Source: Escherichia phage K30. Taken from it: 40,940 nt of DNA. Under the pieces are notes generated by a model. The model was not told the DNA's origin. It did no database searches and saw only the letters and a program-made list of their open reading frames with translations. The position numbers were made by a program, and so were the translations under genes. The stretch is taken from sequence record NC_015719.1; one strand, given 5' to 3'. Shown here in pieces: positions 8,236 to 40,363 of this stretch (position 1 is its first letter; every line of letters starts with the position of its first letter).

Positions 8236-8322
8236 ATGTCTATCGACCTAATTCTAATCATCGTGTTCATCCTCGCGGCTATCGTGTGGTCAATGAACGA
8301 CGAGCCACCTAAAGGAGCATAA
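8236..8322 (+). CDS. Hypothetical 28-aa hydrophobic peptide (MSIDLILIIVFILAAIVWSMNDEPPKGA)
   Basis: Short ORF immediately after a promoter, AGGAGA upstream; single predicted transmembrane segment. Confidence 0.3.
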   Translation: MSIDLILIIVFILAAIVWSMNDEPPKGA

Positions 8323-8325
8323 ACC

Positions 8326-8589
8326 ATGCGCTTACACTTCAATAAATCAAACGGTATCTTCTCGGTTCGCCGGGAAGACCGCAGCACTGTGGTAGCCTCC
8401 GAGCGCCACGGTAAGATTCCACGTATCGGAGACACCTTCGAGCTGGCTCCTCGCGTGCACATCTTGGTTACTCGCGGTCTCTACGAATTGGCTCAGACTA
8501 AGAGCCGTCCTTTCGTACCCGTAGTGGTAACCAAGTGGCCACGCCTTCGTCTATTCTGGGAGCGCATCAAGGAGGTCGTAAATGACTGA
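8326..8589 (+). CDS. 1.6: Gene 1.6-like protein
   Basis: 87 aa; recalled similarity to T7 gp1.6 (MFRLHYNKS...VRRADRS..ASER..KIP...RIKEV); AAAGGAG RBS. Confidence 0.7.
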   Translation: MRLHFNKSNGIFSVRREDRSTVVASERHGKIPRIGDTFELAPRVHILVTRGLYELAQTKSRPFVPVVVTKWPRLRLFWERIKEVVND

Positions 8590-9007
8590 ACATGAAATTC
8601 TAGTGGTGAACCTGCTGGTTGACCAGAATGCTGACCGCCCAGACTCCACGACGTGCTCTGATGGCGTAAAGTGCTACAAGGTAGCGTGCAAGGAGTGTCC
8701 GCTTAATGTCAAAGGAATGACCATTGGGAAGGTGCGTGCAATGCAGGACAGTAAGACTCCAGATGTAGACAATGGTGTCAAGCAGCCAAGTCACTATCAA
8801 CTGTTCGAAGGCGTCGAGGCCATCGAGGTTATTGCTCGAAGCATGACCCAAGAGATGTTCAAAGGGTACTGCCTTGGGAACATCCTCAAGTACCGACTCC
8901 GTGCTGGTAAGAAGTCCGAGCTGGCTACCTTAGAGAAAGACATGGCAAAGGCCGCTTTCTATCTGGAGCTGTATACCAAGCACAAAGGTCTGTGTTATGA
9001 CGCCTAG
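8582..9007 (+). CDS. 1.7: Nucleotide kinase (T7 gene 1.7)
   Basis: 141 aa; C-terminal half matches T7 gp1.7 from memory (PSHY.LF...EAIEVIARSMT.E.FKGYC.GNILKYRLRAGKKSELA.LEKD.AKA.FY.EL); shorter N-terminus than T7. Confidence 0.85.
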   Translation: MTEHEILVVNLLVDQNADRPDSTTCSDGVKCYKVACKECPLNVKGMTIGKVRAMQDSKTPDVDNGVKQPSHYQLFEGVEAIEVIARSMTQEMFKGYCLGNILKYRLRAGKKSELATLEKDMAKAAFYLELYTKHKGLCYDA

Positions 9008-9122
9008 TGAATGGGCAAGAAAGATGTACGAGAAGACGCTCGACCCTGCGTACATCACCATGTATAACATGTGGAAGGAGCGAGAAGATGCAAAAGTTCG
9101 TCGTAACGGTCGAGACAGCTAA
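8997..9122 (+). CDS. 1.8: Gene 1.8-like small protein
   Basis: 41 aa; SEWARKMYEKTLDPAYITMYNMWK resembles T7 gp1.8 SEWCRKMWEETFDDAYIKLYELWK (recalled). Confidence 0.5.
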   Translation: MTPSEWARKMYEKTLDPAYITMYNMWKEREDAKVRRNGRDS

Positions 9123-9237
9123 CGCATCGTATGAACTCCCGGTACACGCTGGGTCTCTTGAGGAGGCCCTCGAAGTTGCCGAGGCAGAGTACGAAGAGTT
9201 AGGCCAAGTGACTCGGGTACGCCCTGATAGTCATTAG
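9088..9237 (+). CDS. 2: Host RNA polymerase inhibitor (T7 gene 2)
   Basis: 49 aa from an internal ATG with AAGGAG RBS; LEEALEVAE...VTRVRP resembles T7 Gp2 (recalled). Confidence 0.7.
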   Translation: MQKFVVTVETANASYELPVHAGSLEEALEVAEAEYEELGQVTRVRPDSH

Positions 9238-9254
9238 GGCACACTATAGGGACA
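9232..9254 (+). promoter_or_regulatory. Phage RNAP promoter (phi2.5-like), cattagggcacactatagggaca
   Basis: Consensus match. Confidence 0.8.
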
Positions 9255-9296
9255 CAGGCTGTCCCTCTTTCTGTTATAAACCAAAGGAGATTCATC

Positions 9297-9992
9297 ATGG
9301 CATTCGCTAAGAAGAAGATTTACACCACCAAGATTGGTACCTGTGAGCCGTACGCTTACTTCAACAAGCCGGACTATGGCGGTGAGGGTTTTGAGAACCC
9401 ACGCGGTACCTACAAAGGTTCCGTAACGTTCAAGAACGAAGACTGTCAGGAGCTGGTAGACCTCATCGTTAAGACCCATGAGGAAAACTACGCTGCTCGT
9501 CTGGAAGCACATGAAGCGAACCCGCCGAAGGTTCAGAAGGGTAAGAAACCTCTGAAGCCGTATGAAGGCGACATGCCATTCTTCGACAATGGTGATGGTA
9601 CAACCACGTTCAACTTCAAGTGCTACGGTTCGTACGAGGACAAGAAAACCGGCGAGACCAAGAAGATTGTTCTGGGTGTAGTTGACGCCAAGGGCAAACG
9701 TATCCAAGATGTTCCAATTATTGGTGGTGGTTCCAAAGTGAAAATTCGCTTCTCTCTGGTACCGTATGGCTGGTCCGCTGTGGCTGGTGCTTCCGTTAAG
9801 TTGCAACTGGAAGGCGTAATGCTGGTCGAACTGGCTACCTTTGGTGGTGGCGAAGACGATTGGGCTGACGAAGCTGTAGAAGGTGGCTATGAAGCTGACG
9901 AATCTCGCAGCCGCAAACCTCAGGAAGACCCGGAAGACTGGTCTGGTGAGGAAGCGGATGAGGGCGAAGCTGAAGAAGACGATGACTTCTAA
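9297..9992 (+). CDS. 2.5: Single-stranded DNA-binding protein (T7 gene 2.5)
   Basis: 231 aa; recalled strong similarity to T7 gp2.5 (EPYAY..KPDYG, KPLKPYEGDMPFFDNGDGTTTF, VPIIGGGSK, acidic C-terminal tail ending DF). Confidence 0.95.
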   Translation: MAFAKKKIYTTKIGTCEPYAYFNKPDYGGEGFENPRGTYKGSVTFKNEDCQELVDLIVKTHEENYAARLEAHEANPPKVQKGKKPLKPYEGDMPFFDNGDGTTTFNFKCYGSYEDKKTGETKKIVLGVVDAKGKRIQDVPIIGGGSKVKIRFSLVPYGWSAVAGASVKLQLEGVMLVELATFGGGEDDWADEAVEGGYEADESRSRKPQEDPEDWSGEEADEGEAEEDDDF

Positions 9993-10441
9993 TGGCTGGC
10001 TACGGAGCCAAAGGGATTCGGAAGGTGGGTGCCTTCCGGTCTGGCCTTGAGGATAAGGTATCCAAGCAGTTAGAATCAAAGGGCGTCACGTTCGACTACG
10101 AATTGTGGCGCATCCCTTACGTTATTCCTGCGAGTGACCACCTTTACACTCCAGACTTCTTGTTACCTAACGGTATCTTCGTGGAGACTAAGGGTCTCTG
10201 GGAAGCCGAGGACCGCAAGAAGCACCTATTGATTCGCGAGCAATACCCGGAGTTAGACATCCGGTTAGTGTTCTCTTCGAGTCGCACTAAGATTTACAAA
10301 GGGTCACCAACCAGTTACGCTGAGTGGTGCGAGAAGCATAACATCTTGTTTGCCGACAAATTGATTCCCGTAGACTGGCTGAAGGAGCCGAAGCGTGATG
10401 TACCGTTCGGCAAGTTCAAACAGAAGAAAGGAGCAAAGTAA
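9992..10441 (+). CDS. 3: Endonuclease I, Holliday junction resolvase (T7 gene 3)
   Basis: 149 aa; N-terminal MAGYGAKGIRKVGAFRSGLEDKVSKQLESKG identical to recalled T7 gp3. Confidence 0.95.
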   Translation: MAGYGAKGIRKVGAFRSGLEDKVSKQLESKGVTFDYELWRIPYVIPASDHLYTPDFLLPNGIFVETKGLWEAEDRKKHLLIREQYPELDIRLVFSSSRTKIYKGSPTSYAEWCEKHNILFADKLIPVDWLKEPKRDVPFGKFKQKKGAK

Positions 10442-10443
10442 GT

Positions 10444-10899
10444 ATGGCTAAGGTTCAATTCACTAAGCGACAGGAGACCTCTCAGATTTTCGTTCACTGC
10501 TCAGCTACCAAGGCGACCATGAATATTGGCGTCCGTGAGATTCGCCAGTGGCACAAGGAGCAGGGCTGGCTGGACGTAGGGTATCACTTCATCATCCGCC
10601 GTGACGGTACCGTTGAGGTAGGTCGAGACCAAGATGCTGTAGGTTCACACGTCAAAGGCTACAACTCGACTTCGGTCGGCGTGTGTTTGGTGGGAGGTAT
10701 CGACGCCAAGGGCAACCCTGAGGCAAACTTCACTCCAGCCCAGATGCAGGCACTGCGTTCACTGTTGGTAGAACTGAAGGTGCAATACGATGGGGCTGTT
10801 CTGATGGCACACCACGATGTAGCACCTAAAGCCTGCCCGAGCTTCGACCTGAAGCGCTGGTGGGAGAAGAATGAACTGGTCACTTCAGACCGTGGGTAA
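10444..10899 (+). CDS. 3.5: Lysozyme / N-acetylmuramoyl-L-alanine amidase, RNAP inhibitor (T7 gene 3.5)
   Basis: 151 aa; recalled near-identity blocks with T7 lysozyme (IFVHCSATK, VREIRQWHKEQGWLDVGYHFII, AHH.VAPKACPSFDLKRWWEKNELVTSDRG). Confidence 0.95.
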   Translation: MAKVQFTKRQETSQIFVHCSATKATMNIGVREIRQWHKEQGWLDVGYHFIIRRDGTVEVGRDQDAVGSHVKGYNSTSVGVCLVGGIDAKGNPEANFTPAQMQALRSLLVELKVQYDGAVLMAHHDVAPKACPSFDLKRWWEKNELVTSDRG

Positions 10900-10900
10900 A

Positions 10901-10923
10901 CATTAGGGCACACTACAGGGAGA
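10901..10923 (+). promoter_or_regulatory. Variant phage promoter (phi4-like), cattagggcacactaCagggaga
   Basis: Consensus match except TACAGGG instead of TATAGGG. Confidence 0.6.
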
Positions 10924-10962
10924 CAATTACGTTTCCCTGTTGTCGCTTGAGGAGATTACTTT

Positions 10963-12897
<1,935 letters not shown>

Positions 12898-12907
12898 GAG
12901 AACCATC

Positions 12908-13117
12908 ATGTTTAAACTCATCGAAACTTTAGGCCGTCTGGTCATCGCGCTGTACATCCGTGAAGCCAAGGCACTGGACAAAGCGTCCAAGGTGGAAGCA
13001 GAAGCAGCCACTAAGCTGGCTAAGGCAGCCGACAAGGCACGTCAGGCATCTCTGGATGCAACCGCAGAGGCAGCGAAAGTTGCACTTAAAGCTCAGAAAC
13101 TTAAGGAGTTCTTCTAA
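12908..13117 (+). CDS. 4.3: Gene 4.3-like protein
   Basis: 69 aa; MFKLIETLGRLVIALY resembles the recalled T7 gp4.3 N-terminus; AGGAGA RBS. Confidence 0.6.
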   Translation: MFKLIETLGRLVIALYIREAKALDKASKVEAEAATKLAKAADKARQASLDATAEAAKVALKAQKLKEFF

Positions 13118-13425
13118 TGACTACCAAAGCTAAATTCCCCGGTAATACCATTCAGCTGTCCGACACTGTAGACCAGTGGGGCCGCAAGGTTCACATCAAC
13201 GTTCGCAACGACAAGGTTACTCTGGTCTACCGCTGGAAGGCTAAGAGCGATAATCGTGCACATACTCAGCGTGTGACACTTGACGATGTTCAAGCAGCTC
13301 GACTACTGGCCTCCGTGGCTGTCGCAGCGACTGTGGCGGTTGGTGAAGATAAGGTGCGTGAGGCTATCCTGAGTAAAGAGGTAGGCTCGACGGCAACCCG
13401 ACTGGCTGAAGCGTCAGAAGCCTAG
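13117..13425 (+). CDS. 4.5: Gene 4.5-like hypothetical protein
   Basis: 102 aa; TAATG overlap with 4.3; call is by position only. Confidence 0.5.
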   Translation: MTTKAKFPGNTIQLSDTVDQWGRKVHINVRNDKVTLVYRWKAKSDNRAHTQRVTLDDVQAARLLASVAVAATVAVGEDKVREAILSKEVGSTATRLAEASEA

Positions 13426-13431
13426 TGATAA

Positions 13432-13467
13432 ACTCAAGGTCATTACTATATGTAGTGGCCTTTATGA
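13432..13467 (+). promoter_or_regulatory. RNase III-type processing hairpin (R4.7-like)
   Basis: actcaaggtcattac-tatat-gtagtggcctttatga; about 11-bp stem. Confidence 0.6.
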
Positions 13468-13500
13468 TTATCATACACAACATATTGAGAGGACATAACC

Positions 13501-13884
13501 ATGCGTAAACCTGAAGAAATCCGTGCAGACATCGAGAAGCTGACCAAAGAGCTGGAAGCTATTAAGGTTCATGAGTCCAGACAGGTTGCTGCTGTTAACA
13601 TCCTGTATAACTTAGGTTGGAAACATGACAACCTTAAGGGTTGGCAGAAGCCTGCTCCGAAGTGTAGCGACTACAAGGCCCCGCTGAAGGCTGGAGAGCT
13701 TGCAACGTTGGAGAAGACTCATTGTATAGGATTATATATCCACAGCGTTGGCAACAAGTTCTCACAGGTGTCTCTCATACGCAACGTAAACATGCGTGGT
13801 GTAGATGTTCTGTCTAGCAGCTTTTTTGTAGAAAACAGTAAGTTGACCGTTCGTCCGCGTGAATACTTCATCGGGCGCCGGTAA
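13501..13884 (+). CDS. 4.7: Gene 4.7-like hypothetical protein
   Basis: 127 aa; GAGAGGA RBS; call is by position only. Confidence 0.5.
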   Translation: MRKPEEIRADIEKLTKELEAIKVHESRQVAAVNILYNLGWKHDNLKGWQKPAPKCSDYKAPLKAGELATLEKTHCIGLYIHSVGNKFSQVSLIRNVNMRGVDVLSSSFFVENSKLTVRPREYFIGRR

Positions 13885-13900
13885 TTAATAGGAGACCACT

Positions 13901-16018
13901 ATGTTAGTAACCGATATCGAGGCGAACAACCTCTTAGAGAAAGTCACTCAGTTCCACTGCGGGGTCATCTATGACTACAGCACGGACGAGTACGTATCGT
14001 ATCGACCTTGGGACTTCTCAGCGTATCTCGATGCGTTGGAAGCTGAGGTGGCTCGTGGTGGTCTCATTGTATTCCACAACGGTCACAAATATGATGCCCC
14101 AGTGTTAACCAAACTGGCCAAGCTCCAGTTAAACAGAGAGTTCCACCTGCCGCGTGAGAACGTAGTGGACACGTTGGTGCTCAGTCGTTTACTGTTTGCG
14201 AACATTAAAGACACCGACATGGCCCTACTGCGTTCCGGTAAGTTACCCGGTAAGCGCTTCGGGTCTCACGCTCTTGAGGCGTGGGGTTACCGCTTAGGCG
14301 AGATGAAGGGCGAGTACAAGGACGACTTCAAGAAGCTCCTTGAGGAACAGGGAGAGGATTACGTGGACGGCGCTGAGTGGATTAGCTTTAACGAGCCGAT
14401 GATGGACTATAACGTTCAGGACGTTGTGGTCACCAAGGCGCTCTTAGAGAAGCTACTTAGTGATAAGCACTACTTCCCGGATGGTGATATCCACTGGTGG
14501 GCGCACGATGCCGTGTCGTTTTGGGGCAACTCCTGTGAGGCCGTATGGCTGGAACACAGAGCCGCTTGGTTACTCGCTAAGCAGGAGCGCAACGGATTCC
14601 CGTTCAACACCAAGGCCATAGAGGAACTCTACGTTGAACTCGCGGGTCGTCGTTCTGAACTCCTTCAGACACTCACCGACACTTTCGGAACTTGGTATCA
14701 ACCTAAGGGCGGTACTGAGTTATTCCTACACCCTCGCACCGGTAAGCCTCTGGGTAAATACCCGCGAGTGAAGTACCCGAAGCAGGGTGGCATCTACAAG
14801 AAACCCAAGAACAAAGCTCAGCGTGAGGGACGTGAACCCTGTGAGCTGGACACTCGGGATTACGTAGAGGGCGCTCCGTATACACCAGTAGAGCACGTTG
14901 TGTTTAACCCAAGTAGTCGAGACCACATTGCTATCAAGCTGAAGGAAGCCGGATGGGTACCTACAGAGTTCACCGAAAAGGGTGCACCTAAGGTAGACGA
15001 CGAGGTCCTTGAGCATGTGCGTGTGGATGACCCTGAGAAGCAGCGCTGCATCGACCTAATCAAAGAGTACCTGATGGTACAGAAGCGTATCGGTCAGGCA
15101 GCTGAGGGAGACAAGGCGTGGCTTCGTTACGTTCAAGAGGATGGTAAAATTCATGGAAGTGTTAACCCTAATGGTGCAGTTACAGGGCGAGCAACGCATA
15201 GCTTCCCTAACCTTGGTCAAGTTCCGGGCGTTCGTTCGCCGTATGGTGAGCCTTGTCGAGCAGCGTTCGGCGCAGAGCATCACTTGGACGGACTTACCGG
15301 AAAGCCTTGGGTTCAAGCGGGTATCGACGCCAGTGGACTCGAACTCCGTTGTCTGGCACACTTCATGTCTAAGTACGACGGAGGGGCATATGCGGATGTT
15401 ATTCTCAACGGTGATATCCACACAGTCAACCAAACGGCGGCTGAGTTGCCAACACGTGATAACGCCAAGACATTCATCTACGGTTTCCTCTATGGTGCTG
15501 GAGACGAAAAGATTGGACAGATTGTGGGAGCAGGTAAGGAACGCGGAAAGGAACTCAAGAAGAAATTCCTTGAGAACACCCCAGCAATCGCAGCCCTGCG
15601 TGAAGGAATCCAACAGACCCTCGTCGAGTCATCCCGATGGGTCGCCGGAGAGCAGAAGGTCAAGTGGAAACGACGTTGGATTAAGGGACTGGATGGAAGA
15701 AAGGTACACGTACGGTCACCACATGCCGCGCTCAACACCCTCCTTCAGTCAGCGGGTGCACTCATTTGTAAGCTGTGGATTGTCGAGACTGAAGAGTTAC
15801 TTCTCAAAGCAGGCTTGAAACACGGCTGGGATGGGGACTTTGCGTACATGGCGTGGGTTCATGATGAAATTCAAGTAGCGTGTCGAACCCCAGAGATTGC
15901 ACAGCAGGTTATCGACACTGCGCAACAAGCTATGCGCAACGTTGGGGAACACTTTAAGTTCCGTTGCCGTCTGGATACAGAAGGTAAGATGGGTCCTAAC
16001 TGGGCCGTATGTCACTAA
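13901..16018 (+). CDS. 5: DNA polymerase (T7 gene 5)
   Basis: 705 aa; recalled extensive identity with T7 gp5 (DIEAN.LLE, HNGHKYD, YGFLYGAGDEKIG, C-terminal GKMGPNWA.CH). Confidence 0.98.
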   Translation: MLVTDIEANNLLEKVTQFHCGVIYDYSTDEYVSYRPWDFSAYLDALEAEVARGGLIVFHNGHKYDAPVLTKLAKLQLNREFHLPRENVVDTLVLSRLLFANIKDTDMALLRSGKLPGKRFGSHALEAWGYRLGEMKGEYKDDFKKLLEEQGEDYVDGAEWISFNEPMMDYNVQDVVVTKALLEKLLSDKHYFPDGDIHWWAHDAVSFWGNSCEAVWLEHRAAWLLAKQERNGFPFNTKAIEELYVELAGRRSELLQTLTDTFGTWYQPKGGTELFLHPRTGKPLGKYPRVKYPKQGGIYKKPKNKAQREGREPCELDTRDYVEGAPYTPVEHVVFNPSSRDHIAIKLKEAGWVPTEFTEKGAPKVDDEVLEHVRVDDPEKQRCIDLIKEYLMVQKRIGQAAEGDKAWLRYVQEDGKIHGSVNPNGAVTGRATHSFPNLGQVPGVRSPYGEPCRAAFGAEHHLDGLTGKPWVQAGIDASGLELRCLAHFMSKYDGGAYADVILNGDIHTVNQTAAELPTRDNAKTFIYGFLYGAGDEKIGQIVGAGKERGKELKKKFLENTPAIAALREGIQQTLVESSRWVAGEQKVKWKRRWIKGLDGRKVHVRSPHAALNTLLQSAGALICKLWIVETEELLLKAGLKHGWDGDFAYMAWVHDEIQVACRTPEIAQQVIDTAQQAMRNVGEHFKFRCRLDTEGKMGPNWAVCH

Positions 16019-16036
16019 TAATACAGGAGATTTACC

Positions 16037-16706: not shown

Positions 16707-17604
16707 GCACACATTGTTATCCTTCAGAGACTACCGGGCAACCCAGAAGATTGCCAAAGGTGTCCTTGTGATGGATGGTGACTGGTTGGTATTTCAAGCT
16801 ATGAGTGCCGCTGAGTTCGATGCCTCTTGGGAGGAGGAGATTTGGCACCGCTGCTGTGACCATGCTAAGGCTCGCGAGATTCTGGAGAACTCCATTAAGT
16901 CCTACAAGGGCCGCAAGAAGGCATGGAAGAATGCTGATGTAGTCCTCGCGTTCACTGACCGTGTCAACTGGCGTAAGCTGCTGGTGGACCCAACGTACAA
17001 AGAGAACCGCGCAGTCGTTAAGAAGCCTGTGGGTTACTACGAGTTCCTAGAGTCTGTCTTCGAGACCTACACGTGTGTCCTTGAGCCTCAGCTCGAGGGT
17101 GATGACGTGATGGGTATCATCGGGTCTGGCCCTCTCGTGTACAACTATGAGAAGGCTGTACTGGTCGCCTGTGACAAGGACTTTAAGACAGTCCCGGATT
17201 GCGACTTCCTGTGGTGTACGACTGGTAACATCCTCGTGCAGACGCAGGAGACCGCTGACTACTGGCATCTCTTCCAGACTATCAAGGGAGACATCACCGA
17301 TGGTTACGGTGGGATTCCCGGATGGGGCGATACCGCTGAGGACTTCCTCAAGGAACCATTCATTGTGGAGCCTGTAACATCCGTACTGAAGTCTGGTAAG
17401 AACAAAGGCCAAGAGGTAACCAAGTGGGTGAAACGCGCTCCTGAGCCGGGAGAGACGCTCTGGGACTGCATTAAGTCCATTGGTGCCAAAGCAGGGATGA
17501 CCGAAGAGGAAGTAATCAAGCAGGGCCAGATGGCTCGAATCCTCCGTTCTGATGAGTACAACATCGAGACTGGGGAGATTACTCTATGGCAACCGGGCAG
17601 CTGA
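16699..17604 (+). CDS. 6: 5'-3' exonuclease (T7 gene 6)
   Basis: Recalled long identity blocks with T7 gp6 (GILVMDGDWLVFQAMSAAEFDASWEEEIWHRCCDHAKAR); start taken at the ATG with AGGAGG RBS rather than the upstream ATG at 16678. Confidence 0.95.
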   Translation: MSKHTLLSFRDYRATQKIAKGVLVMDGDWLVFQAMSAAEFDASWEEEIWHRCCDHAKAREILENSIKSYKGRKKAWKNADVVLAFTDRVNWRKLLVDPTYKENRAVVKKPVGYYEFLESVFETYTCVLEPQLEGDDVMGIIGSGPLVYNYEKAVLVACDKDFKTVPDCDFLWCTTGNILVQTQETADYWHLFQTIKGDITDGYGGIPGWGDTAEDFLKEPFIVEPVTSVLKSGKNKGQEVTKWVKRAPEPGETLWDCIKSIGAKAGMTEEEVIKQGQMARILRSDEYNIETGEITLWQPGS

Positions 17605-17621
17605 TTCTTATTGTCCTGACC

Positions 17622-17696
17622 ATGGGCTTAGTCGCTCGTGGTCTCTGGATGTTGGTCTTAATTATCAAGCAGATAGTTGAGCATAAAATAGAGTGA
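17622..17696 (+). CDS. Possible 24-aa hydrophobic peptide (gene 6.3 position)
   Basis: Short ORF after gene 6; no clear RBS. Confidence 0.15.
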   Translation: MGLVARGLWMLVLIIKQIVEHKIE

Positions 17697-17697
17697 T

Positions 17698-17746
17698 AAA
17701 CTCATGGGCACAATTAGGACCCACTATAGGGAAGTGCCCATTATGA
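17698..17746 (+). promoter_or_regulatory. RNase III-type hairpin enclosing a phage promoter (R6.5/phi6.5-like)
   Basis: 8-bp stem atgggcac (17704-17711) / gtgcccat (17734-17741) brackets the promoter core; flanks aaactca...ttatga are those of the hairpin family. Confidence 0.55.
17712..17734 (+). promoter_or_regulatory. Phage RNAP promoter (phi6.5-like), aattaggacccactatagggaag
   Basis: Consensus match. Confidence 0.8.
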
Positions 17747-17781
17747 TTATTACTTAAAGATTACTTAAAGAGGAGACTCAA

Positions 17782-18018: not shown

Positions 18019-18029
18019 GGAGATTGATT

Positions 18030-18251: not shown

Positions 18252-18252
18252 C

Positions 18253-26028: not shown

Positions 26029-26030
26029 CT

Positions 26031-32858: not shown

Positions 32859-32879
32859 TTAGGACACACTATAGGGAGA
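32857..32879 (+). promoter_or_regulatory. Phage RNAP promoter (phi17-like), aattaggacacactatagggaga, with 5' leader hairpin
   Basis: Consensus match; transcript begins gggagacc-gatt-ggtttccc. Confidence 0.85.
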
Positions 32880-32919
32880 CCGATTGGTTTCCCTCCTCAT
32901 TCAACTAAAGGAGGTCACA

Positions 32920-35631
32920 ATGGACCAAGACATTAAAACAGTCATTCAGTACCCAGTAGGGGCCACTGAGTTCGACATCCCGTTCGACTACCTGTCCCGC
33001 AAGTTTGTCCGTGTGTCGCTGGTGACAGGCGACAACCGAAGACTGCTGAGTAACATCACTGAGTACCGCTACGTGTCTAAGACCAGAGTGAAGCTCCTTG
33101 TGGAGACCGCTGGGTTCGACCGTGTGGAAATCCGTAGGTTCACCTCGGCATCTGAGCGAATCGTTGACTTCAGTGATGGCTCGGTTCTCCGTGCGGCTGA
33201 CCTTAACGTGTCTCAGATACAGTCGGCACATATCGCAGAGGAAGCACGTGATGCGGCACTTATGGCAATGCCTCAGGATGATGTCGGTAACCTTGATGCA
33301 CGTAACCGTAGAATCGTGCGGCTGGCACCGGGCATTGATAGTACAGATGCAATCAATAAGAACCAACTGGACACCACCTTAGGTGAGGCTGGTGGTATTC
33401 TGTCACAAGTCAAGGATACCCAGAAGGACATTCAGAACTACATTCAGAAGTTCGGCGATGACACCGCTATGGTTCGTGGAGTAAATTGGGTGTATAACGG
33501 TGGGTCTGCCATTGGTGGAGAGACCTCCTTTATCATCGACAAGTCAGCGCCAGTGTTCGCCGTACCATACATTGAGGTAAACGGAAGCCGTCAGTTCCGA
33601 GACTGGCAGTACGAGTATGACCCTGCAACCAAGCGTGTCACTCTGGTTAAACCTCTGGAGGCTGGAGACTTTGTTGTATGCCTCACTACCGAGAATAAGT
33701 TACCTTTAGAAGACCTGCTGGCTAGTACAGGAGGTGCCGATTCCATTGGTAAGGCTGGAGGTGGTACAGTTCAGGATGGTCTGGATGCAACGATACATGG
33801 TACTGATGTCCACCGAGACACTGTGACTCCCGGTAAACTGGACACACTCCTTGTGTACAATGGGACCAACGCTGGGCGCGACCTACGTGGCCATGAGTTC
33901 GTAATGCCCCACGGCACATTCTCCGCGACTCGCATCTTGAGAACTCGTGGTATCTCAGCGGCTGAATCTAAGTACACTGGGTTCACTTGGCGCGGACAGG
34001 GTAGTTCGTTCACCAAGTTGGTCCACCCTGCGACTGGTGGTCAGGGTGATATTGCATTCATGGACTACCTGAAGGATGTTACGATGTCTGGGTTCATGAT
34101 GGACAACACCGCGCTAGGTCAGGGGACTTCCAATCAGGATACCCGTAACGGTCAGTTCTGGATTCGACATTCGGTTGACTCCTACTTCGACGACCTGCGC
34201 TTCGCTGGTGCTGACGCCCTTACGTTCTGTCTGGACCACTGTAAGAACATCTACTCGACAAACCTCAAGGTAGACTATCAGCTGCGCTATCCGACTGGTA
34301 CAGGTAAGTCCCCGCTAATAGTTGGTGACTACTCGGAGCAGTGCATGTTCATCGGCGGCTACGTTAAGACCGTGTCACCTGACGGAACCATAAAGTATGC
34401 TGGTGACCTCGCAGATAACGACCAAGCGGATGATACCAAATGGGCGTTCATTAACCTGTACGGATTGACGTTTGAACAGAAGCCTAACTCTAACGCCTGT
34501 ATGTGGCAAGAAGGGGAGGGTGCACCATCCAACGCTCACTTCATCGGTATGAACTACATCAACAACGGTGTAGGTCATGGTGTGTCTGAGAAAGCTGTGG
34601 GTACTGACATCGGGTCTACCTTCCGTCAGGCTCAGGTTCGTGCTGTGTGGAACCGTGCTGAGTACATCTCAATCGGCAGTCACTTCATTAACAACGATGC
34701 CAAGTATCCTGCTGGCACTGGTGGCGCAGGTACTGCGGCTGCTGGTGGTGTTCATAATGACAACGCCAAGTTCACCTCTCTGGTTGGTGACTACTTCCGT
34801 GGTAACTTCGCGGATTATACAGACTACACAGGGGCATCTGGTGTTAACCCGGAGAACTCAACCCACATCACCAACGCAAAGTTGACATCCATCATTCGTA
34901 CATCGTCCTCCAGTACCTCTCAGCATTTAGCCATTGTGAACTGCCAGTTAACTTCTGCGGGTCGTATTAGCGGCGGCGGTAACGGGAGACTCCACGTGTC
35001 CGTTGTGGCATCTCACTGCGTCGGGCCTCTGGGGCAGTTTGGTCACGGACAGTCCGAGACGTACCTTGACGTCATAAACTCTACGTTCACTGCCGCTGGT
35101 AGCACTGAGGCTATGATTACCCAGTCAGGTGTTGGTAATATCTCGTTCGCTAACTCCACGTTCCGTGATTATATCCGTGTGGTAGATGGCTCGCATACCC
35201 GTGTTACCTTCCGTAACTGTACGTTCTACACTTGTACTTTCACTGAGGACGACCGAAAAGCTCGCTACGTTAACTGCCGATTTATCTCGTGCACTGACGC
35301 TCCAGACTCCTTCGGCCTCAACTTTGCGGCAGACTCTCTGGACCGCCCTAGCTCACTTCGAGTTAACGTAACGTTAACTGCTGGCGGCAGCTATACGTTC
35401 CCGGCTTGGGTACTTCAGGGTCGTGGTGCTTACTTCATCAACGTGGGTGGTAATGGTGCCAACCTTCCTGCCTGCGCTGGTATCATTGGTAAGAGTAGCG
35501 CGACTGGTAGTGGTGTATGGACCCCTCAGTGGGAAAGCACTCCTAGTAGTATTGTTGTATCTTGGCCATCCAACGGATACATTACTGTTACGGCCACAAC
35601 TGCTGGCAACTACACAATCGGCGTCCACTAA
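32920..35631 (+). CDS. 17: Tail fibre / tailspike with T7 gp17-like N-terminal anchor and beta-helix (depolymerase-like) C-terminal region
   Basis: N-terminal 150 aa resemble T7 gp17 ([48 protein letters not shown]); C-terminus has repetitive N.TF / NCTFYTCTF segments typical of parallel beta-helix enzymes; start at ATG 32920 with AAGGAGGT RBS. Confidence 0.9.
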
Positions 35632-35644
35632 TAAGGAGAACCAC

Positions 35645-37198
35645 ATGTTAGACAAATTGAATCAGCCGAAAGGCTCAACCATTGGTGTGCTCAAGGATGG
35701 GCGCACCACCCAAGAGGCCATTGACGAACTCACTAATGATGTAACAGGAAGTATCACAACTACCCGGTATGCATCGAGTGCTTCCCAGGCGCTGTTCCCG
35801 AAGCTCATTGACAAGATGACTGCGTATCGGCATGGTGTCTCTGGATTCCAAGACAAGTTTCGAATCTACGGGTATGGCTCCTCTGTAGGCAATGGGGCAA
35901 CGATTGGTGGAAACTCCTCGCCAAATACCCCAGTAGCAAAATTCTTTGAGCACTTCCAGAGGACGGTCAACAAGGCTGGAATCTACCCATTCGAATACTC
36001 GAACAAGTCGGTGGATGGTTCCAACATCAACGATTTCCTCAACCGGGAGTGGCCTGCGACTGTCGCCACTGGTGTCTTCCCGGACCTAGCGGTTTTCGCT
36101 TACGGTATGAATGACTTCCCCTCGGCGCAGTATAATGCTGGGATGACCTTCGGGGCCAACGGTTTCAAACAGAGACTTCGCAATGCAATACAGAAGGTTC
36201 GAGACGCTGGCGGAGATGTAGTTCTCCTGACCACCCCACACCCAAACATTGAGGAATACTCGTGGGAACTCCCGTCAAGTATAGACATGGTGTGGCCCCA
36301 GTTTGCTGCCAAACCCGTGGCTGGTGACGTTCTTATTCCACCAGTGTCACAATCAAATGTGTCCTTCGACTTCATGGGCAAACGCATCACTCAGGGTGTT
36401 CGCTTCCTGAGAGGTAACGATGCGATGCGTGAGGTTGCTGTGGAGATGGGTTGCGTCTTGATTGACGTTGAGAAATACTGGTTCGAGGCCGTTGGTAAGT
36501 ATGGGAACGTACTACTGTTCGACCGCGTGCCAGCAATGCAGACAGTGCACCCTAACCTACTGGGTCACCAGCAGTCGTACTGGCGGGCAATCGAAGAGTT
36601 CTTCAACAATGTGGATTCCTCTGGATGGATTGCTCCAGACGCTAAGTTGAACCAGACGCTGGATGTTGGCGGTAACGCCCTGAACCCCGCGAAGATGGAA
36701 GCTGATGTCGACCTTCAGGCCAACGGCATCCGTCAGCGTGCATTCGTGCGCCGGGATAAGTCTGGCCGTGTCATGGAGGAGCTGACGCAGGACAGCAGGG
36801 TCAAGCGCACATCCTACACGGTGTCAGACCCTACAGTATCAGCTCCGGGATATAGCCTAACATGGGACGAGTGGTTTACCCGCACCAAGGGATTATTCAC
36901 CAGTGGGGAGACTTTGGGCATCCCTGTAAATAACCGCACCGAAGGTCGACTATTAGTCACAGCGTGGATTTCAGGCCAGACTGGCTGGACCCAGCTTGAG
37001 GACTACTTAGTCTCTAACCGTGAGGGTGTTGTATTGGTCTCCAAGATTGGCTCTTTAGATAATACTCCACCGGCTGGTGGTACAGGGACCAACGGTCAGC
37101 GCCTGTTCACCGTGTCCACCTCTGCGAACAATGTCGTGGTTAATATCCTATCGGATAACGCCACTGTGAAGTTCAAACTGGACACCTTTGGGGCATAA
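35645..37198 (+). CDS. Second receptor-binding protein candidate with SGNH/GDSL-hydrolase-like motifs (putative esterase tailspike)
   Basis: 517 aa from ATG 35645 with TAAGGAGAA RBS; motifs YGYGSS, YGMNDF, VHPNLLGH in the order expected for an SGNH fold; sits between gene 17 and the holin. Confidence 0.6.
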   Translation: MLDKLNQPKGSTIGVLKDGRTTQEAIDELTNDVTGSITTTRYASSASQALFPKLIDKMTAYRHGVSGFQDKFRIYGYGSSVGNGATIGGNSSPNTPVAKFFEHFQRTVNKAGIYPFEYSNKSVDGSNINDFLNREWPATVATGVFPDLAVFAYGMNDFPSAQYNAGMTFGANGFKQRLRNAIQKVRDAGGDVVLLTTPHPNIEEYSWELPSSIDMVWPQFAAKPVAGDVLIPPVSQSNVSFDFMGKRITQGVRFLRGNDAMREVAVEMGCVLIDVEKYWFEAVGKYGNVLLFDRVPAMQTVHPNLLGHQQSYWRAIEEFFNNVDSSGWIAPDAKLNQTLDVGGNALNPAKMEADVDLQANGIRQRAFVRRDKSGRVMEELTQDSRVKRTSYTVSDPTVSAPGYSLTWDEWFTRTKGLFTSGETLGIPVNNRTEGRLLVTAWISGQTGWTQLEDYLVSNREGVVLVSKIGSLDNTPPAGGTGTNGQRLFTVSTSANNVVVNILSDNATVKFKLDTFGA

Positions 37199-37207
37199 GG
37201 AGGTACC

Positions 37208-37411
37208 ATGTTGTCCCTAGACTTCAACAACGAAGTTATCAAGGCGGCTCCCATTGCGGGGGTCGCTGGGGCTGACGGTGTAGCGAGGCTCTTCTGGGGC
37301 CTCTCACTCAACGAGTGGTTCTACGTCGCGGCAATCGCCTACACAGTGGTTCAGATTGGTGCCAAGGTAGTCGACAAAATCATTGACTGGAAGAAAGCAA
37401 ATAAGGAGTAA
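37208..37411 (+). CDS. 17.5: Class II holin (T7 gene 17.5)
   Basis: 67 aa; recalled near-identity to T7 gp17.5 (MLSLDFNNE.IKAAPI, LSLNEWFYVAAIAYTVVQIGAKVVDK.IDWKKANKE). Confidence 0.9.
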   Translation: MLSLDFNNEVIKAAPIAGVAGADGVARLFWGLSLNEWFYVAAIAYTVVQIGAKVVDKIIDWKKANKE

Positions 37412-37414
37412 CAT

Positions 37415-37672
37415 ATGGACCTGATTAAGTTCCTCGAAATGTTAGACACTGAGATGGCTCAGCAGATGCTCATGGACCTGAAGAATCCAGAGAAGCGGAC
37501 CCCTCAGTTGTACAACGCCATTGGTAAACTACTGGAGCGTCACAAGTTCCAAATCTCTAAGCTAACCCCTGACGTTAACATCTTGGGTGGACTGGCTGAG
37601 GGTCTGGAGGCTTACAACTCCAAGGTGGGTGCTGATGGTCTTACAGACGACGATACGTTCACCCTACAGTGA
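37415..37672 (+). CDS. 18: Terminase small subunit (T7 gene 18)
   Basis: 85 aa; recalled similarity to T7 gp18 (FLEMLDT.MAQ.ML.DL, PQLYNAI.KLL.RHKFQI.KL.PDV.ILGGLA, GLTDDD..TLQ). Confidence 0.9.
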   Translation: MDLIKFLEMLDTEMAQQMLMDLKNPEKRTPQLYNAIGKLLERHKFQISKLTPDVNILGGLAEGLEAYNSKVGADGLTDDDTFTLQ

Positions 37673-37675
37673 TAT

Positions 37676-37709
37676 ACTCAAGGTACTACTATATGTAGTG
37701 CCTTTATGA
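37676..37709 (+). promoter_or_regulatory. RNase III-type processing hairpin (R18.5-like)
   Basis: actcaaggtactac-tatat-gtagtgcctttatga; about 10-bp stem. Confidence 0.6.
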
Positions 37710-37768
37710 ATGTCATTGCACTACGCTAGGCGTTCCTACGTGAAATCTGAGAAACAACGGGAGGCATT

Positions 37769-38215
37769 ATGCTGGGGTTCACAAAGAGAATCGTCCCGTA
37801 TCTTGTGGCTATCATGGTGTTTGCCTTCGGGTGGCACTTGGGTTCGCAATCTACGGACGCTAAATGGAAGGAGGTAGTACAGAATGAGTACGTTTCGAAG
37901 CAAACAGCTAGAGTTCAAACTCAAGCAGCACTTGATGAGATATCGGCTAAGTACCAAGCAGACCTTGAGGGGCTGGAGGGCAGCACTGATAGGATTATTG
38001 CTGATTTGCGTAGCGACAATAAGCGGCTGCGCGTTAGAGTCAAACCTACCAGTGTCGCCGCAGGACCAGACGGTCGATGCCTCGTTGATGGTTCCGTCGA
38101 ACTACACGAAGCAACTGCTCGAAGTCTTATCGCAATAACCCAGAAGGCCGACCTCAAAGAGAAGGCCCTACAGGACACTATTCGTAAGCTACAGCGGAAA
38201 GGAGGTGAACATTGA
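37769..38215 (+). CDS. 18.5: Rz-like i-spanin (T7 gene 18.5)
   Basis: 148 aa; N-terminal TM segment; recalled similarity to T7 gp18.5 ([43 protein letters not shown]). Confidence 0.9.
37884..38138 (+). CDS. 18.7: Rz1-like o-spanin lipoprotein, embedded in gene 18.5 (T7 gene 18.7)
   Basis: 84 aa in the +1 frame inside 18.5; lipobox ...[11 protein letters not shown]; recalled similarity to T7 gp18.7. Confidence 0.8.
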   Translation: MSTFRSKQLEFKLKQHLMRYRLSTKQTLRGWRAALIGLLLICVATISGCALESNLPVSPQDQTVDASLMVPSNYTKQLLEVLSQ

Positions 38216-39969
38216 GTAACTCTCAGCAAGCCAAGAACGCCTTAATCATTGCACAACTGAAGGGTGACTTTGTCGCCTTTCTCTTCGTGCTCTGGAAGGC
38301 CCTGAATCTGCCGGAACCAACCAAGTGTCAAATCGACATGGCTAAATGTCTGGCAGACCCAAAGAACAAGAAGTTTATCCTTCAGGCTTTCCGTGGTATC
38401 GGGAAGTCGTTCATCACGTGTGCGTTCGTTGTGTGGACCCTGTGGCGTGACCCTCAGTTAAAGATACTGATTGTCTCAGCCTCAAAGGAACGTGCGGACG
38501 CTAACTCCATCTTCATTAAGAACATCATCGACTTGTTGCCTTTCCTGAGTGAGCTTAAACCTCGCCCCGGTCAGCGTGACTCCGTGATTAGTTTTGATGT
38601 AGGCCCTGCCAAGCCAGACCACAGCCCGTCAGTTAAGTCTGTAGGTATTACGGGTCAGCTTACTGGTAGCCGTGCCGATATCATCATTGCAGATGACGTG
38701 GAGATTCCCGGTAACTCTGCAACTCAAGGTTCTCGTGAGAAACTCTGGACGTTGGTTCAGGAGTTCGCCGCGCTGTTGAAACCTCTACCGACTAGCCGTG
38801 TTATCTATCTGGGTACCCCTCAGACCGAGATGACGCTCTACAAGGAACTTGAGGACAACCGTGGTTACTCTACAATTATCTGGCCAGCACAGTATCCTCG
38901 CTCCAAAGAGGAAGACCTGTACTATGGCGACCGACTGGCTCCTATGCTCCGTAGCGAGTACGATGAGGACAAAGAGGGTCTCGCCAGTCAGCCAACAGAC
39001 CCGGTGCGGTTCGACTCTATGGACCTTCAGGAGCGTGAGGTGGAGTACGGCAAGGCTGGCTATACGCTTCAGTTCATGCTCAACCCAAACCTCAGTGACG
39101 CCGAGAAGTACCCTCTACGCCTCCGTGACGCTATCGTGTGCAGTCTACAGGTAGACAAGGCCCCAATGCACTACCAGTGGTTACCTAACCGTCAGAACCG
39201 CAATGAGGAGCTTCCTAACGTGGGTATGAAGGGTGACGAGATTTACTCCTTCCATACGGCCTCAAGTAACACTGGTGCGTATCAAGGTAAGATTCTGGTC
39301 ATTGACCCAAGCGGTCGTGGTAAGGATGAGACTGGCTGGTGCGTATTGTATACCCTCAACGGTTACATCTACTTGATGGACGCTGGTGGTACTCGTGGTT
39401 ACGAGGAGAAGTCCCTTGAGTTCCTCGCCAAGAAGGCCAAACAGTGGCAGGTTCAGACTGTGGTCTTCGAGAGTAACTTCGGTGACGGTATGTTCGGTAA
39501 TGTGTTCCAGCCTGTTCTCCTGAAGCATCACCCAGCGCAACTCGAAGAGATTCGTGCTCGTGGTATGAAAGAGGTCCGCATCTGCGATACCCTTGAGCCT
39601 GTACTGGCAAGTCACCGCTTGGTCATCCGTGATGAGGTAATCCGACAGGACTACCAGACGGCACGTGATGCAGACGGTAAGCACGCTCTGAAGTACAGCC
39701 TGTTCTACCAGATGACCCGTATGAGCCGTGAGAAGGGAGCTGTGGCACATGATGACCGACTTGATGCATTAGCATTGGGTGTTGAGTTCCTACGCTCTAC
39801 GATGCAGCAGGACGCTGTGAAGATAGAGGCTGAGGTACTTCAGGAGTTCTTGGAGCACCACATGGAGAAACCTCTGAGTAATATCTCACAGTTCAGAACC
39901 ACCAGCAGTAACGGTGTGGACATCCGGTGGGAAGACGATGGGGATGACTCTATGTTCATCGCATGGTAA
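38212..39969 (+). CDS. 19: Terminase large subunit (T7 gene 19)
   Basis: 585 aa; recalled extensive identity to T7 gp19 ([70 protein letters not shown]); TTG start with AAAGGAGGTGA RBS. Confidence 0.97.
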
Positions 39970-40049
39970 CTATGCAGGGATTGTGCATAAGGATTCATTG
40001 GGCCACGGAAGGCTGCTTTGGGGAAACTCCATGTATAACAGACACTTGG

Positions 40050-40072
40050 AATTAGGACCCACTATAGGGAGA
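40050..40072 (+). promoter_or_regulatory. Phage RNAP promoter (phiOR-like), aattaggacccactatagggaga
   Basis: Consensus match, downstream of gene 19 as in T7. Confidence 0.85.
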
Positions 40073-40213
40073 GACCACTCAAAGATTACTATAAGACAAC
40101 TTAAAGATTCATTCATATAGTTATTCACTTTAAGTCTCCTTACAGATAGAGGGTAGTGATGATAATATCACCCTCTCACTCTAAGACACTAAGAGCCAAC
40201 ATAAGGAGGACCT

Positions 40214-40363
40214 ATGCGCTTATTGTTAACCTTACTGCGCCATAGGACTACTTGGCGATTTCTGCTGGTACTTGCTGGTGCCCTTGGGGCTTCACTGGTT
40301 ACTCAGCAGCAACTCGGTGGACTGGAGACTCTCGTGTGCTCTCTACTCACTTGTAGCGATTAG
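40214..40363 (+). CDS. 19.5: Gene 19.5-like small hydrophobic protein (49 aa)
   Basis: TAAGGAGGA RBS; MRLLLTLLRH...LVLAGALGASLV is hydrophobic; positioned after phiOR like T7 gene 19.5. Confidence 0.45.
   Translation: MRLLLTLLRHRTTWRFLLVLAGALGASLVTQQQLGGLETLVCSLLTCSD

What the first reader, a model, noticed from the sequence alone, without database searches (positions are those of the whole stretch)
8236..40363. Several very short hydrophobic ORFs with good ribosome-binding sites
ORFs of 28 aa (8236-8322), 39 aa (10963-11082) and 49 aa (40214-40363) each follow a promoter, have a Shine-Dalgarno sequence and encode a single predicted membrane helix. A 35-aa Cys-rich ORF (12790-12897) also has a good RBS. 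Such micro-proteins are missed by standard gene callers and in phages can act as membrane effectors or lysis/exclusion modulators.
Basis: partly seen in the sequence, partly recalled or inferred. Interest (0 to 1): 0.45.

Follow-up and report, generated by a model that had tools for sequence, protein, structure and literature searches.

The report
Conserved T7-family membrane micro-genes

Summary
The window is the whole genome of Escherichia phage K30, a K11-like (Przondovirus) member of the T7 group. The four ORFs are separate things, not one system.

- **8236-8322 (28 aa):** positional and architectural counterpart of T7/T3 gene 1.5. It is open in all 56 K11-like loci examined, with pN/pS 0.15. 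It is unannotated in almost all relatives.
- **10963-11082 (39 aa):** a K11-group-specific single-helix protein (phrog_13077). It overlaps the primase/helicase gene 4A start by ATGA. pN/pS is 0.25. K11 and many relatives already annotate an ORF here as "hypothetical".
- **40214-40363 (49 aa):** gene 19.5 (DUF5465), annotated in T7. Published T7 work treats it as a candidate secondary holin.
- **12790-12897 (35 aa):** not a gene of its own. Its ATG is unique to this phage. The Cys-rich stretch is the selected C-terminal tail (pN/pS 0.12) of gene 4.2 (12529-12897), which overlaps gene 4.

The promoters and ribosome-binding sites are real for the three hydrophobic ORFs.

Novelty is low: these are new or unannotated members of known kinds.

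The parts
8208..8230 (+). K11-type phage-RNAP promoter (T7 phi1.5 equivalent; K11 record calls it phi1.6). +1 is at 8225, and its GGAG (8225-8228) serves as the SD of ORF1.
   Evidence: Sequence. Identical to K11's annotated promoter 8158-8180. The same promoter-to-ATG arrangement is seen in T7, T3-like and other clades.
8236..8322 (+). Gene 1.5-like micro-gene, 28 aa: an N-terminal TM helix followed by the acidic tail NDEPPKGA.
   Evidence: Open in 56 of 56 K11-like loci. pN/pS is 0.148 in frame against 1.19 and 5.98 in the other frames. Same slot and same architecture as T7/T3 gene 1.5.
10901..10923 (+). K11-type phage promoter (T7 phi3.8 equivalent), +1 at 10918.
   Evidence: K11 annotates the equivalent at 10908-10930.
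10918..10937 (+). Predicted 5' leader stem-loop at the start of the transcript (GGGAGAC...GUUUCCC).
   Evidence: The fold of 10917-10965 gives -13.1 kcal/mol with z = -1.96. This is modest support.
10963..11082 (+). 39-aa single-helix micro-gene (phrog_13077). Its stop overlaps the gene 4A start as ATGA.
   Evidence: phrog_13077 at E = 2e-24. 299 phage records carry it at full length with 55-95% aa identity. pN/pS is 0.251 in frame against 0.83 and 2.08. ATGA overlap shown.
11079..12809 (+). Gene 4A primase/helicase, the downstream partner of ORF2 and the gene overlapped by gene 4.2.
12529..12897 (+). Gene 4.2 (122 aa), in the +1 frame over the gene 4 3' end. It has two TM-like segments and a basic C-terminal half.
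   Evidence: phrog_5140 at E = 3e-49 and DUF5480. Annotated in K30 itself as AEH41033.1. The ORF is open in T7, T3 and K11 clades. Gene 4 synonymous diversity is 0.078 in the overlap against 0.235 elsewhere.
12810..12897 (+). Cys-rich tail of gp4.2 downstream of the gene 4 stop (WCSCEHCC...).
   Evidence: pN/pS is 0.122 in the 4.2 frame, 0.92 in the '4.3-extension' frame and 2.37 in the third frame. The tail is one of several interchangeable cassettes.
12908..13117 (+). Gene 4.3, with its likely true start at 12908 (SD TAGGAGA at 12895-12901).
   Evidence: phrog_1950 and DUF5471 align only from residue 33 of the 12812 ORF. K11 and KP32 annotate the 210-nt form.
40050..40072 (+). phiOR-type phage promoter, +1 at 40067.
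   Evidence: K11's phiOR is at 40503-40525.
40214..40363 (+). Gene 19.5, 49 aa: basic N-terminus, one TM-like segment, and a C-terminal CS.L.C.D motif.
   Evidence: phrog_2193 at E = 1.4e-22. DUF5465 scores 24.2 bits against a cutoff of 25. The same 90% cluster is named 'gp19.5 family protein', and K30's own entry is AEH41062.1. A 49-50 aa ORF is kept in T7, T3 and K11 clades.
17586..17696 (+). Gene 6.3-like 36-aa single-helix micro-gene.
   Evidence: phrog_5008 at E = 1e-19. K11 annotates 6.3 at 17667-17777. T7 gp6.3 is also hydrophobic.

Best explanation
The window is phage K30, a K11-like T7-group phage, and the four ORFs are four separate items of the standard T7-group gene set.

1. **8236-8322** encodes a 28-aa gp1.5-type peptide: one membrane helix plus a short acidic tail. 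It is the first cistron of the class II transcript started at 8225, and the promoter's own GGAG acts as its ribosome-binding site. Shown: it is a conserved coding sequence under purifying selection. Inferred: it inserts in the inner membrane. Inferred from T7/T3 literature only: it acts on host physiology or DNA metabolism.

2. **10963-11082** encodes a 39-aa K11-group-specific single-helix peptide. It is the first cistron after the phi3.8-type promoter and is joined to primase/helicase gene 4A by an ATGA overlap. It probably has two roles: a membrane peptide in its own right, and delivery of ribosomes to gene 4A. The coupling is inferred from the overlap and was not tested.

3. **40214-40363** is gene 19.5, a small protein with a basic N-terminus and one hydrophobic segment. 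In T7 it influences lysis timing and is a candidate secondary holin. N-in topology is inferred from the positive-inside rule.

4. **12790-12897** is not a gene. It is the Cys-rich C-terminal tail of gp4.2, translated from the conserved start at 12529 in the +1 frame over the end of gene 4.
For: Identity of the genome:
- Exact protein matches to Escherichia phage K30 entries.
- 100% match to a 40,940-bp IMG/VR contig.
- K11/T7 synteny throughout.

ORF1:
- 56 of 56 K11-like loci keep the ORF open from the same start.
- pN/pS is 0.148 in frame against 1.19 and 5.98 off frame.
- Almost all 80 T7-group loci carry a 24-30 aa ORF in the same slot with a helix plus a DD/DE..P tail.
- The ATG follows closely after the promoter's GGAG in every clade, 11 nt after +1 in K30/K11 and 13 nt in T7.
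- Gene 1.5 knock-outs arose in parallel in T7 and T3 ligase-deletion lines (PMC2696425).
- T7 gp1.5 is toxic on expression.

ORF2:
- phrog_13077 at E = 2e-24.
- 299 records carry it at full length with 55-95% aa identity.
- pN/pS is 0.251 against 0.83 and 2.08.
- The ATGA overlap with the next gene is kept in all alleles.

ORF4:
- Family hits.
- 51 of 53 K11-like loci have an intact 49-aa ORF, and the ORF is kept with in-frame indels in T7 and T3 clades.
- It is the only open frame there.
- T7 genetics (PMC2680503).

ORF3:
- Met-1 is unique to the window. Relatives have Thr, and tblastn alignments start at residue 2 in nearly all listed rows.
- The tail is selected in the 4.2 frame, pN/pS 0.122.
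- The 4.2 frame is open for about 90 codons in all clades.
- Gene 4 synonymous diversity drops about 3-fold across the overlap.
Against: - No expression data exist for K30 itself.
- Similarity of ORF1 to T7/T3 gp1.5 is not statistically detectable: no hit to phrog_12128 or phrog_10145, and hhalign gives probability 2.7%. Orthology therefore rests on synteny and architecture.
- gp19.5 shows a weak codon signature. In-frame pN/pS is 0.36 within K11-like phages (frame +1 gives 0.20) and about 0.7 across clades, with unusually conserved synonymous sites. Part of its conservation must be at the nucleotide level.
- The drop in gene 4 synonymous diversity begins about 30-60 codons before the 4.2 start. 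It could partly reflect recombination history.
- The 4.2 start codon sits inside a conserved helicase motif, so its conservation is not independent evidence.
- Membrane insertion is inferred from hydropathy only.
Confidence: 0.85

Rival explanations
1. The short ORFs are chance open frames in intergenic or regulatory DNA and are not translated into functional peptides.
For: Short hydrophobic ORFs do occur by chance: 9 of 165 small six-frame ORFs are as hydrophobic, and one antisense ORF inside gene 4 also has an SD. ORF1's SD is simply the promoter's +1 GGAG.
Against: Frame-specific purifying selection for ORF1, ORF2 and the 4.2 tail: in-frame pN/pS of 0.15, 0.25 and 0.12 against 0.8-6 off frame. 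The ORFs are kept open in 56 of 56 loci, 299 records and 51 of 53 loci respectively. T7/T3 genetics exist for genes 1.5 and 19.5.
Confidence: 0.03
2. The 35-aa Cys-rich ORF (12790-12897) is an independently initiated micro-protein.
For: The tail is clearly coding. The window has an ATG at 12790, and also a GTG at 12769 preceded by AAGGAG.
Against: Neither start is conserved. Relatives carry Thr at the ATG position and Ile or Met at the GTG position, and tblastn alignments begin at residue 2. The SD spacing at 12790 is too short. The upstream 4.2 frame is open back to a conserved start in all clades.
Confidence: 0.07
3. ORF2 is mainly a translational-coupling leader that loads ribosomes onto gene 4A, and the peptide itself has no function.
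For: The ATGA overlap with the next gene is kept in every allele. Quite different peptides occupy the slot: a 39/40-aa type, K11's 31-aa type, a 38/40-aa type and a 28-aa type in distant relatives. No strong SD is seen directly upstream of the gene 4A ATG.
Against: Peptide-level purifying selection holds within alleles, with pN/pS of 0.25 and 0.24. All alleles remain single-helix hydrophobic peptides, which a pure leader would not require. The two roles are not mutually exclusive.
Confidence: 0.15
4. The 19.5 region is conserved mainly as a DNA or RNA element near the right genome end (packaging or concatemer processing), and the ORF is secondary.
For: Synonymous sites are unusually conserved and several codons are invariant across clades, with cross-clade pN/pS of 0.6-0.9. 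The T7 literature notes that the 19.5 deletion phenotype may be largely due to the adjacent M-hairpin.
Against: Start codon, strong SD and length (49-50 aa) are kept, and all indels are in frame. It is the only open frame. Amino-acid substitutions A24D and E38G in T7 gp19.5 arose as compensatory changes affecting lysis.
Confidence: 0.1

Closest known systems
T7 gene 1.5 (NP_041965, 29 aa, phrog_12128) and T3-group gene 1.5 (phrog_10145)
   Same: Same slot, between ligase 1.3 and gene 1.6. Same length class (24-30 aa). Same architecture: an N-terminal hydrophobic helix plus an acidic D-D/E..P tail. Same placement of the ATG 11-13 nt after +1 of a phage promoter whose GGAG is the SD.
   Different: No statistically detectable sequence similarity. 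K11-like phages have one promoter here where T7 has two (phi1.5 and phi1.6). The tail is NDEPPKGA rather than DDDMPDGHA.
T7 gene 19.5 (NP_042013; DUF5465; phrog_2193)
   Same: 49 aa. Located between phiOR and the right end. The conserved pattern LL.LLRHR.T[WY]RFL.VL...LG...LE..CS.L.C.D is present.
   Different: About 50% aa identity to T7, with one codon lost near the N-terminus and one gained mid-protein. The Pfam score is just under the cutoff (24.2 against 25).
T7 gene 4.2 (NP_041978; DUF5480; phrog_5140)
   Same: An ORF in the +1 frame over the 3' end of gene 4, with a hydrophobic N-terminal half, ending just before gene 4.3.
   Different: K30 carries a Cys-rich tail cassette (WCSCEHCC...) that T7 lacks. 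Tails are mosaic among relatives.
K11 'unknown product' ASC_0017 (YP_002003805) and phrog_13077
   Same: A small hydrophobic ORF directly upstream of gene 4A, overlapping its start by 4 nt, downstream of the same promoter.
   Different: K11's allele is 31 aa and shares only the N-terminal MN(K/N)(F/L)K motif. K30's 39-aa allele is the phrog_13077 type.
Small phage holins and lysis-timing peptides (for example T7 gp17.5)
   Same: Small size, a membrane helix and charged ends. T7 gp19.5 mutations change lysis time.
   Different: No holin activity has been shown for gp19.5. ORF1 and ORF2 are class II (DNA-metabolism region) genes, not part of the lysis cluster.

Membership tests
T7/T3 gene 1.5 micro-protein | Lies between ligase (1.3) and gene 1.6, immediately downstream of a phage-RNAP promoter. 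| tested here: met
   Promoter at 8208-8230, ORF at 8236-8322, gene 1.6 at 8326. The same layout is seen in T7 (7778 / 7791-7880 / 7906) and in the other clades.
T7/T3 gene 1.5 micro-protein | A 24-30 aa peptide with an N-terminal hydrophobic helix followed by a short acidic tail containing proline. | tested here: met
   MSIDLILIIVFILAAIVW-SMNDEPPKGA. Alignment of clade variants; hydropathy.
T7/T3 gene 1.5 micro-protein | Detectable sequence homology to T7 or T3 gp1.5. | tested here: inconclusive
   No hit to phrog_12128 or phrog_10145. hhalign probability is 2.7%. Peptides this short and hydrophobic give little statistical power. T3 and T7 gp1.5 are themselves only 33% similar (PMC2696425).
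gp19.5 / DUF5465 / phrog_2193 | Sequence match to the family profile. | tested here: met
   phrog_2193 at E = 1.4e-22 over the full length. Pfam DUF5465 scores 24.2 bits against a cutoff of 25. The same 90% cluster is named 'gp19.5 family protein' or DUF5465 by NCBI and UniRef.
gp19.5 / DUF5465 / phrog_2193 | Located after phiOR, between terminase gene 19 and the right terminal repeat. | tested here: met
gp4.2 / DUF5480 / phrog_5140 (for the Cys-rich ORF) | An ORF of about 110-125 aa overlapping the gene 4 3' end in another frame, matching the family profile. | tested here: met
   12529-12897 hits phrog_5140 at E = 3.4e-49 (residues 1-105) and DUF5480 at E = 3.6e-17. The 35-aa ORF alone hits nothing.
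phrog_13077 (K11-group pre-primase micro-protein) | Full-length profile match, and position directly upstream of gene 4A or the HNH 3.8 gene with a 4-nt overlap. | tested here: met
   E = 2e-24 over residues 1-39 of a 40-position profile. Overlap shown. Homologs occur only on contigs consistent with przondovirus genomes (longest about 40 kb) or in named Klebsiella phages.
Holin (for gp19.5) | Forms membrane lesions that release endolysin and sets lysis timing. | not testable with these tools
   Only indirect T7 genetics are available (PMC2680503).
Independent small ORF (for 12790-12897) | Its own conserved start codon with an RBS. | tested here: not met
   The ATG is present only in the window, and relatives have Thr. 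SD spacing is 2 nt.

The most novel reading that the evidence does not exclude
K11-like phages maintain a recombining toolkit of single-helix membrane micro-proteins. One part is an unrecognised accessory hot-spot between the amidase and primase genes, where one to three such genes (32-, 38- and 39/40- or 31-aa types) are chained by ATGA overlaps and swapped between phages. Another is a gp4.2 membrane protein with interchangeable, mostly Cys-rich tails. These could be host-strain-specific effectors, for example counter-defence, exclusion or envelope modulators, rather than housekeeping leftovers.
Probability: 0.2. Interest if true: 0.5.

Novelty: new member of a known kind. Interest (0 to 1): 0.25.

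Why it matters
The practical consequences concern annotation.

- A micro-gene found in nearly all T7-group loci examined (the gene 1.5 type) goes unannotated in most przondovirus records. It is 87 nt; from my own knowledge, the usual gene-caller minimum is 90 nt.
- Some records mis-start gene 4.3 at the equivalent of 12812.
- Klebsiella przondoviruses are widely developed for phage therapy, so a complete list of their membrane-active small proteins is useful for safety assessment and engineering.

Biologically, the result adds comparative support that gp1.5, gp4.2 and gp19.5 are real, selected proteins. It also points to the 3.5-to-4 slot and the gp4.2 tail as fast-evolving modules. It does not reveal a new kind of system.

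Tried and rejected
- **Profile comparison of gp1.5 variants.** Comparing K11-type ORF1 variants with T7/T3-type gp1.5 variants gave no significant match. Homology by sequence therefore could not be claimed.
- **Rfam.** A scan of the whole window found no known RNA family overlapping any ORF.
- **K30 GenBank record.** NC_015719 is not in the phage collection. K30's own annotation was inferred from exact-sequence look-up instead.
- **Homology search with ORF2.** The 40-aa allele was used and found only przondovirus hypothetical proteins.
- **Literature.** No ribosome-profiling data set for T7-group phages was found in the library.
- **The 101-aa reading of gene 4.3 (start 12812), rejected.** Family profiles align only from residue 33, and that frame evolves neutrally across 12814-12897, with pN/pS 0.92.
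- **The 29-aa 'MVRLRCTW' ORF seen in relatives between amidase and primase, considered non-coding.** pN/pS is about 0.7-0.84 in all three frames.
- **+1 ribosomal frameshift from gene 4 into the Cys-rich tail, considered unlikely.** No slippery or stimulatory motif is evident at the gene 4 end, and the 4.2 frame is open for about 90 codons in all clades, which a frameshift would not require.

Full report
**What the window is**

The 40,940-bp window is a complete genome of a T7-group phage.
- Megablast finds hundreds of Klebsiella przondoviruses (K11-like) at about 91-92% identity.
- An IMG/VR contig of exactly 40,940 bp matches at 100%.
- Two of its proteins are exact matches to entries of Escherichia phage K30, AEH41033.1 and AEH41062.1.
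- Gene order follows T7 and K11 throughout.
- Thirteen copies of the K11-type phage promoter consensus are present.

**Checking the observation**

The three hydrophobic ones each have one TM-like segment, and each sits downstream of a phage promoter with a real Shine-Dalgarno sequence.

| ORF | Promoter | SD | Spacer to ATG |
|---|---|---|---|
| ORF1 (8236-8322) | 8208-8230 | GGAG, 8225-8228 | 7 nt |
| ORF2 (10963-11082) | 10901-10923 | GAGGAG, 10949-10954 | 8 nt |
| ORF4 (40214-40363) | 40050-40072 | AAGGAGG, 40203-40209 | 4 nt |

ORF1's SD is the first four bases of the transcript made from its own promoter.

A six-frame census shows this is more than chance. There are 165 small ATG-ORFs, of which 9 are hydrophobic and 11 have a good SD. 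About 0.6 would be expected to have both. Four do, and three of those are the claimed ORFs.

The fourth ORF (12790-12897) does not hold up as described.
- Its RBS is poorly spaced.
- It is simply the last 35 codons of a 122-aa ORF.

**ORF1 (8236-8322) is the K11-group counterpart of T7/T3 gene 1.5**

I fetched 80 related loci around the amidase gene, spanning K11-like, T3-like, T7-like and more distant clades.

Nearly all carry a 24-30 aa ORF just upstream of gene 1.6 with the same design: a hydrophobic helix, then D-D/E, a few residues, then P. Two examples:
- T7 gp1.5: MMYLMPLLIVIVGCLALHCSDDDMPDGHA
- T3-type: MWLILFAIVATLGLMVADDDIWPDC

In every clade the ATG follows closely after the GGAG that begins the transcript of a clade-specific phage promoter, and that GGAG serves as the SD. 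The ATG is 11 nt after +1 in K30 and K11 and 13 nt in T7.

Among 56 K11-like loci the ORF is open from the same start in all of them:
- 52 have ATG and 28 aa.
- One has 29 aa.
- One has a GTG start.
- Two have late frameshifts that only extend the tail.

Pooled Nei-Gojobori pN/pS is 0.148 in frame against 1.19 and 5.98 in the other frames.

Sequence homology to T7/T3 gp1.5 cannot be shown statistically. Membership therefore rests on synteny and architecture.

The ORF is not annotated in K11. In the 60 listed tblastn rows, most records have no annotated feature under it. In the two annotated cases I inspected, the call is longer (123 and 153 nt) and begins upstream of the conserved ATG, inside or before the promoter. 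The consensus peptide is absent from a 15-billion-protein collection.

Literature on gene 1.5:
- Knock-outs arose in parallel in T7 and two T3 lines adapting to ligase deletion (PMC2696425).
- T7 gp1.5 is toxic on expression in minimal medium, and stringent-like RNAP alleles suppress this toxicity (bioRxiv 10.64898/2026.01.27.700999).

**ORF2 (10963-11082) is a K11-group-specific single-helix micro-gene**

- It matches phrog_13077 over its full length (E = 2e-24).
- tblastn finds it at full length in 299 phage records with only 55-95% aa identity. This is far more divergent than the flanking genes, yet the frame is always kept.
- pN/pS is 0.251 against 0.83 and 2.08.
- Its stop overlaps the gene 4A start as ATGA.
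- K11 annotates a 31-aa allele here as 'unknown product'.
- Protein-database homologs are all unnamed or 'hypothetical', on contigs consistent with przondovirus genomes (longest about 40 kb) or in named Klebsiella phages.
- The transcript leader can form a 5' stem-loop (z = -1.96, modest support).

The coupling to gene 4A is inferred from the overlap alone.

**ORF4 (40214-40363) is gene 19.5**

- It hits phrog_2193 (E = 1.4e-22) and lies just under the Pfam DUF5465 cutoff.
- It is annotated in K11, in T7 and in K30 itself.
- It is intact at 49 aa in 51 of 53 K11-like loci. It is kept at 49-50 aa, with in-frame indels, in T7- and T3-type clades.
- It is the only open frame there.
- In T7 it is non-essential, predicted membrane-spanning, and a candidate secondary holin, because substitutions in it compensate holin or endolysin defects (PMC2680503).

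One caveat is that its codon signature is weak.
- pN/pS is 0.36 within K11-like phages, against 0.20 in frame +1.
- Across clades it is about 0.7, with several codons invariant even at synonymous sites.
- This suggests an additional nucleotide-level constraint near the genome end.

**ORF3 (12790-12897) belongs to gene 4.2**

- The 122-aa ORF 12529-12897 matches phrog_5140 (E = 3e-49) and DUF5480. It is K30's annotated gp19.
- The proposed Met at 12790 is Thr in relatives. tblastn alignments in 111 records start at residue 2 in nearly all listed rows.
- The Cys-rich tail downstream of the gene 4 stop is nevertheless clearly translated. pN/pS is 0.122 in the 4.2 frame, against 0.92 in the frame of the alleged 4.3 N-terminal extension.
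- The 4.2 frame stays open for about 90 codons over gene 4 in all clades.
- Gene 4's synonymous diversity falls from 0.235 to 0.078 across the overlap, though the fall begins somewhat upstream of the 4.2 start.
- gp4.2 has two TM-like segments.
- The tail is mosaic. At least six unrelated cassettes occur between the gene 4 stop and gene 4.3, and four or five of them are Cys-rich.
- T7 gp4.2 is also toxic on expression.

**Verdict**

Three of the four belong to gene families annotated in the T7 reference genome (1.5, 4.2, 19.5). The fourth family is already in PHROGs and in many records.

The functional suggestion (membrane, lysis or exclusion effectors) has support only for gp19.5, and there only indirectly. 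Novelty is limited to unannotated members of known kinds, plus the side observations on modular micro-ORF arrays and gp4.2 tails.

Noticed in passing
window 17586-17696 (+): A further 36-aa single-helix micro-ORF (MATGQLILIVLTMGLVARGLWMLVLIIKQIVEHKIE) overlaps the end of gene 6. It is the gene 6.3 homolog (phrog_5008, E = 1e-19).
   Followed up: partly
window 10899-11082, and the amidase-to-gene-4 interval of L005-L060: In K11-like phages this interval is a variable array of one to three single-helix micro-genes chained by ATGA overlaps. The types are 32 aa (pN/pS 0.17), 38/40 aa (0.42), and 39/40 aa (0.25) or 31 aa (0.24), with or without an HNH endonuclease gene. There are 17 different architectures among 56 loci. 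The window has the minimal form, the 39-aa gene alone.
   Followed up: partly
window 12810-12907, and the same interval in L001-L084: The stretch between the gene 4 stop and gene 4.3 is mosaic, with at least six unrelated cassettes. Four or five of them give gp4.2 a Cys-rich C-terminus (CxC...C...C/H patterns), which suggests a recurrent metal-binding or disulfide tail.
   Followed up: partly
window 12812-13117: The 101-aa ORF starting at 12812, annotated as gp4.3 in phage K5-2, is probably mis-started. Family profiles align only from residue 33, the extension frame evolves neutrally (pN/pS 0.92), and a strong SD (TAGGAGA) precedes the ATG at 12908.
   Followed up: yes
window 40214-40363, and L085-L164: Gene 19.5 has unusually conserved synonymous sites across the T7, T3 and K11 clades (for example CGA TTT CT., GTA CTT, TGT AGC GAT). 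This hints at an overlapping DNA- or RNA-level signal near the right genome end.
   Followed up: partly
window 12430-12809 (gene 4 codons about 450-576): Synonymous diversity of gene 4 among 50 K11-like sequences drops about 3-fold here (0.06-0.08 against 0.13-0.37 elsewhere). The drop starts roughly 30-60 codons before the gene 4.2 start, so the overlap may not explain all of it.
   Followed up: no
L068 and L074 (T7-like loci), upstream of gene 1.6: Two T7-like contigs lack the gp1.5-type ORF. They carry instead a 64-aa ORF with a hydrophobic N-terminus (MWPALLFIFAASSPAGG...) in the same slot.
   Followed up: no
window 277-375 and 40824-40922: An identical 32-aa ORF, followed by a phage promoter copy (336-355 and 40883-40902), occurs near both ends of the window. 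This is consistent with the terminal repeat of a T7-like genome rather than with genes.
   Followed up: no
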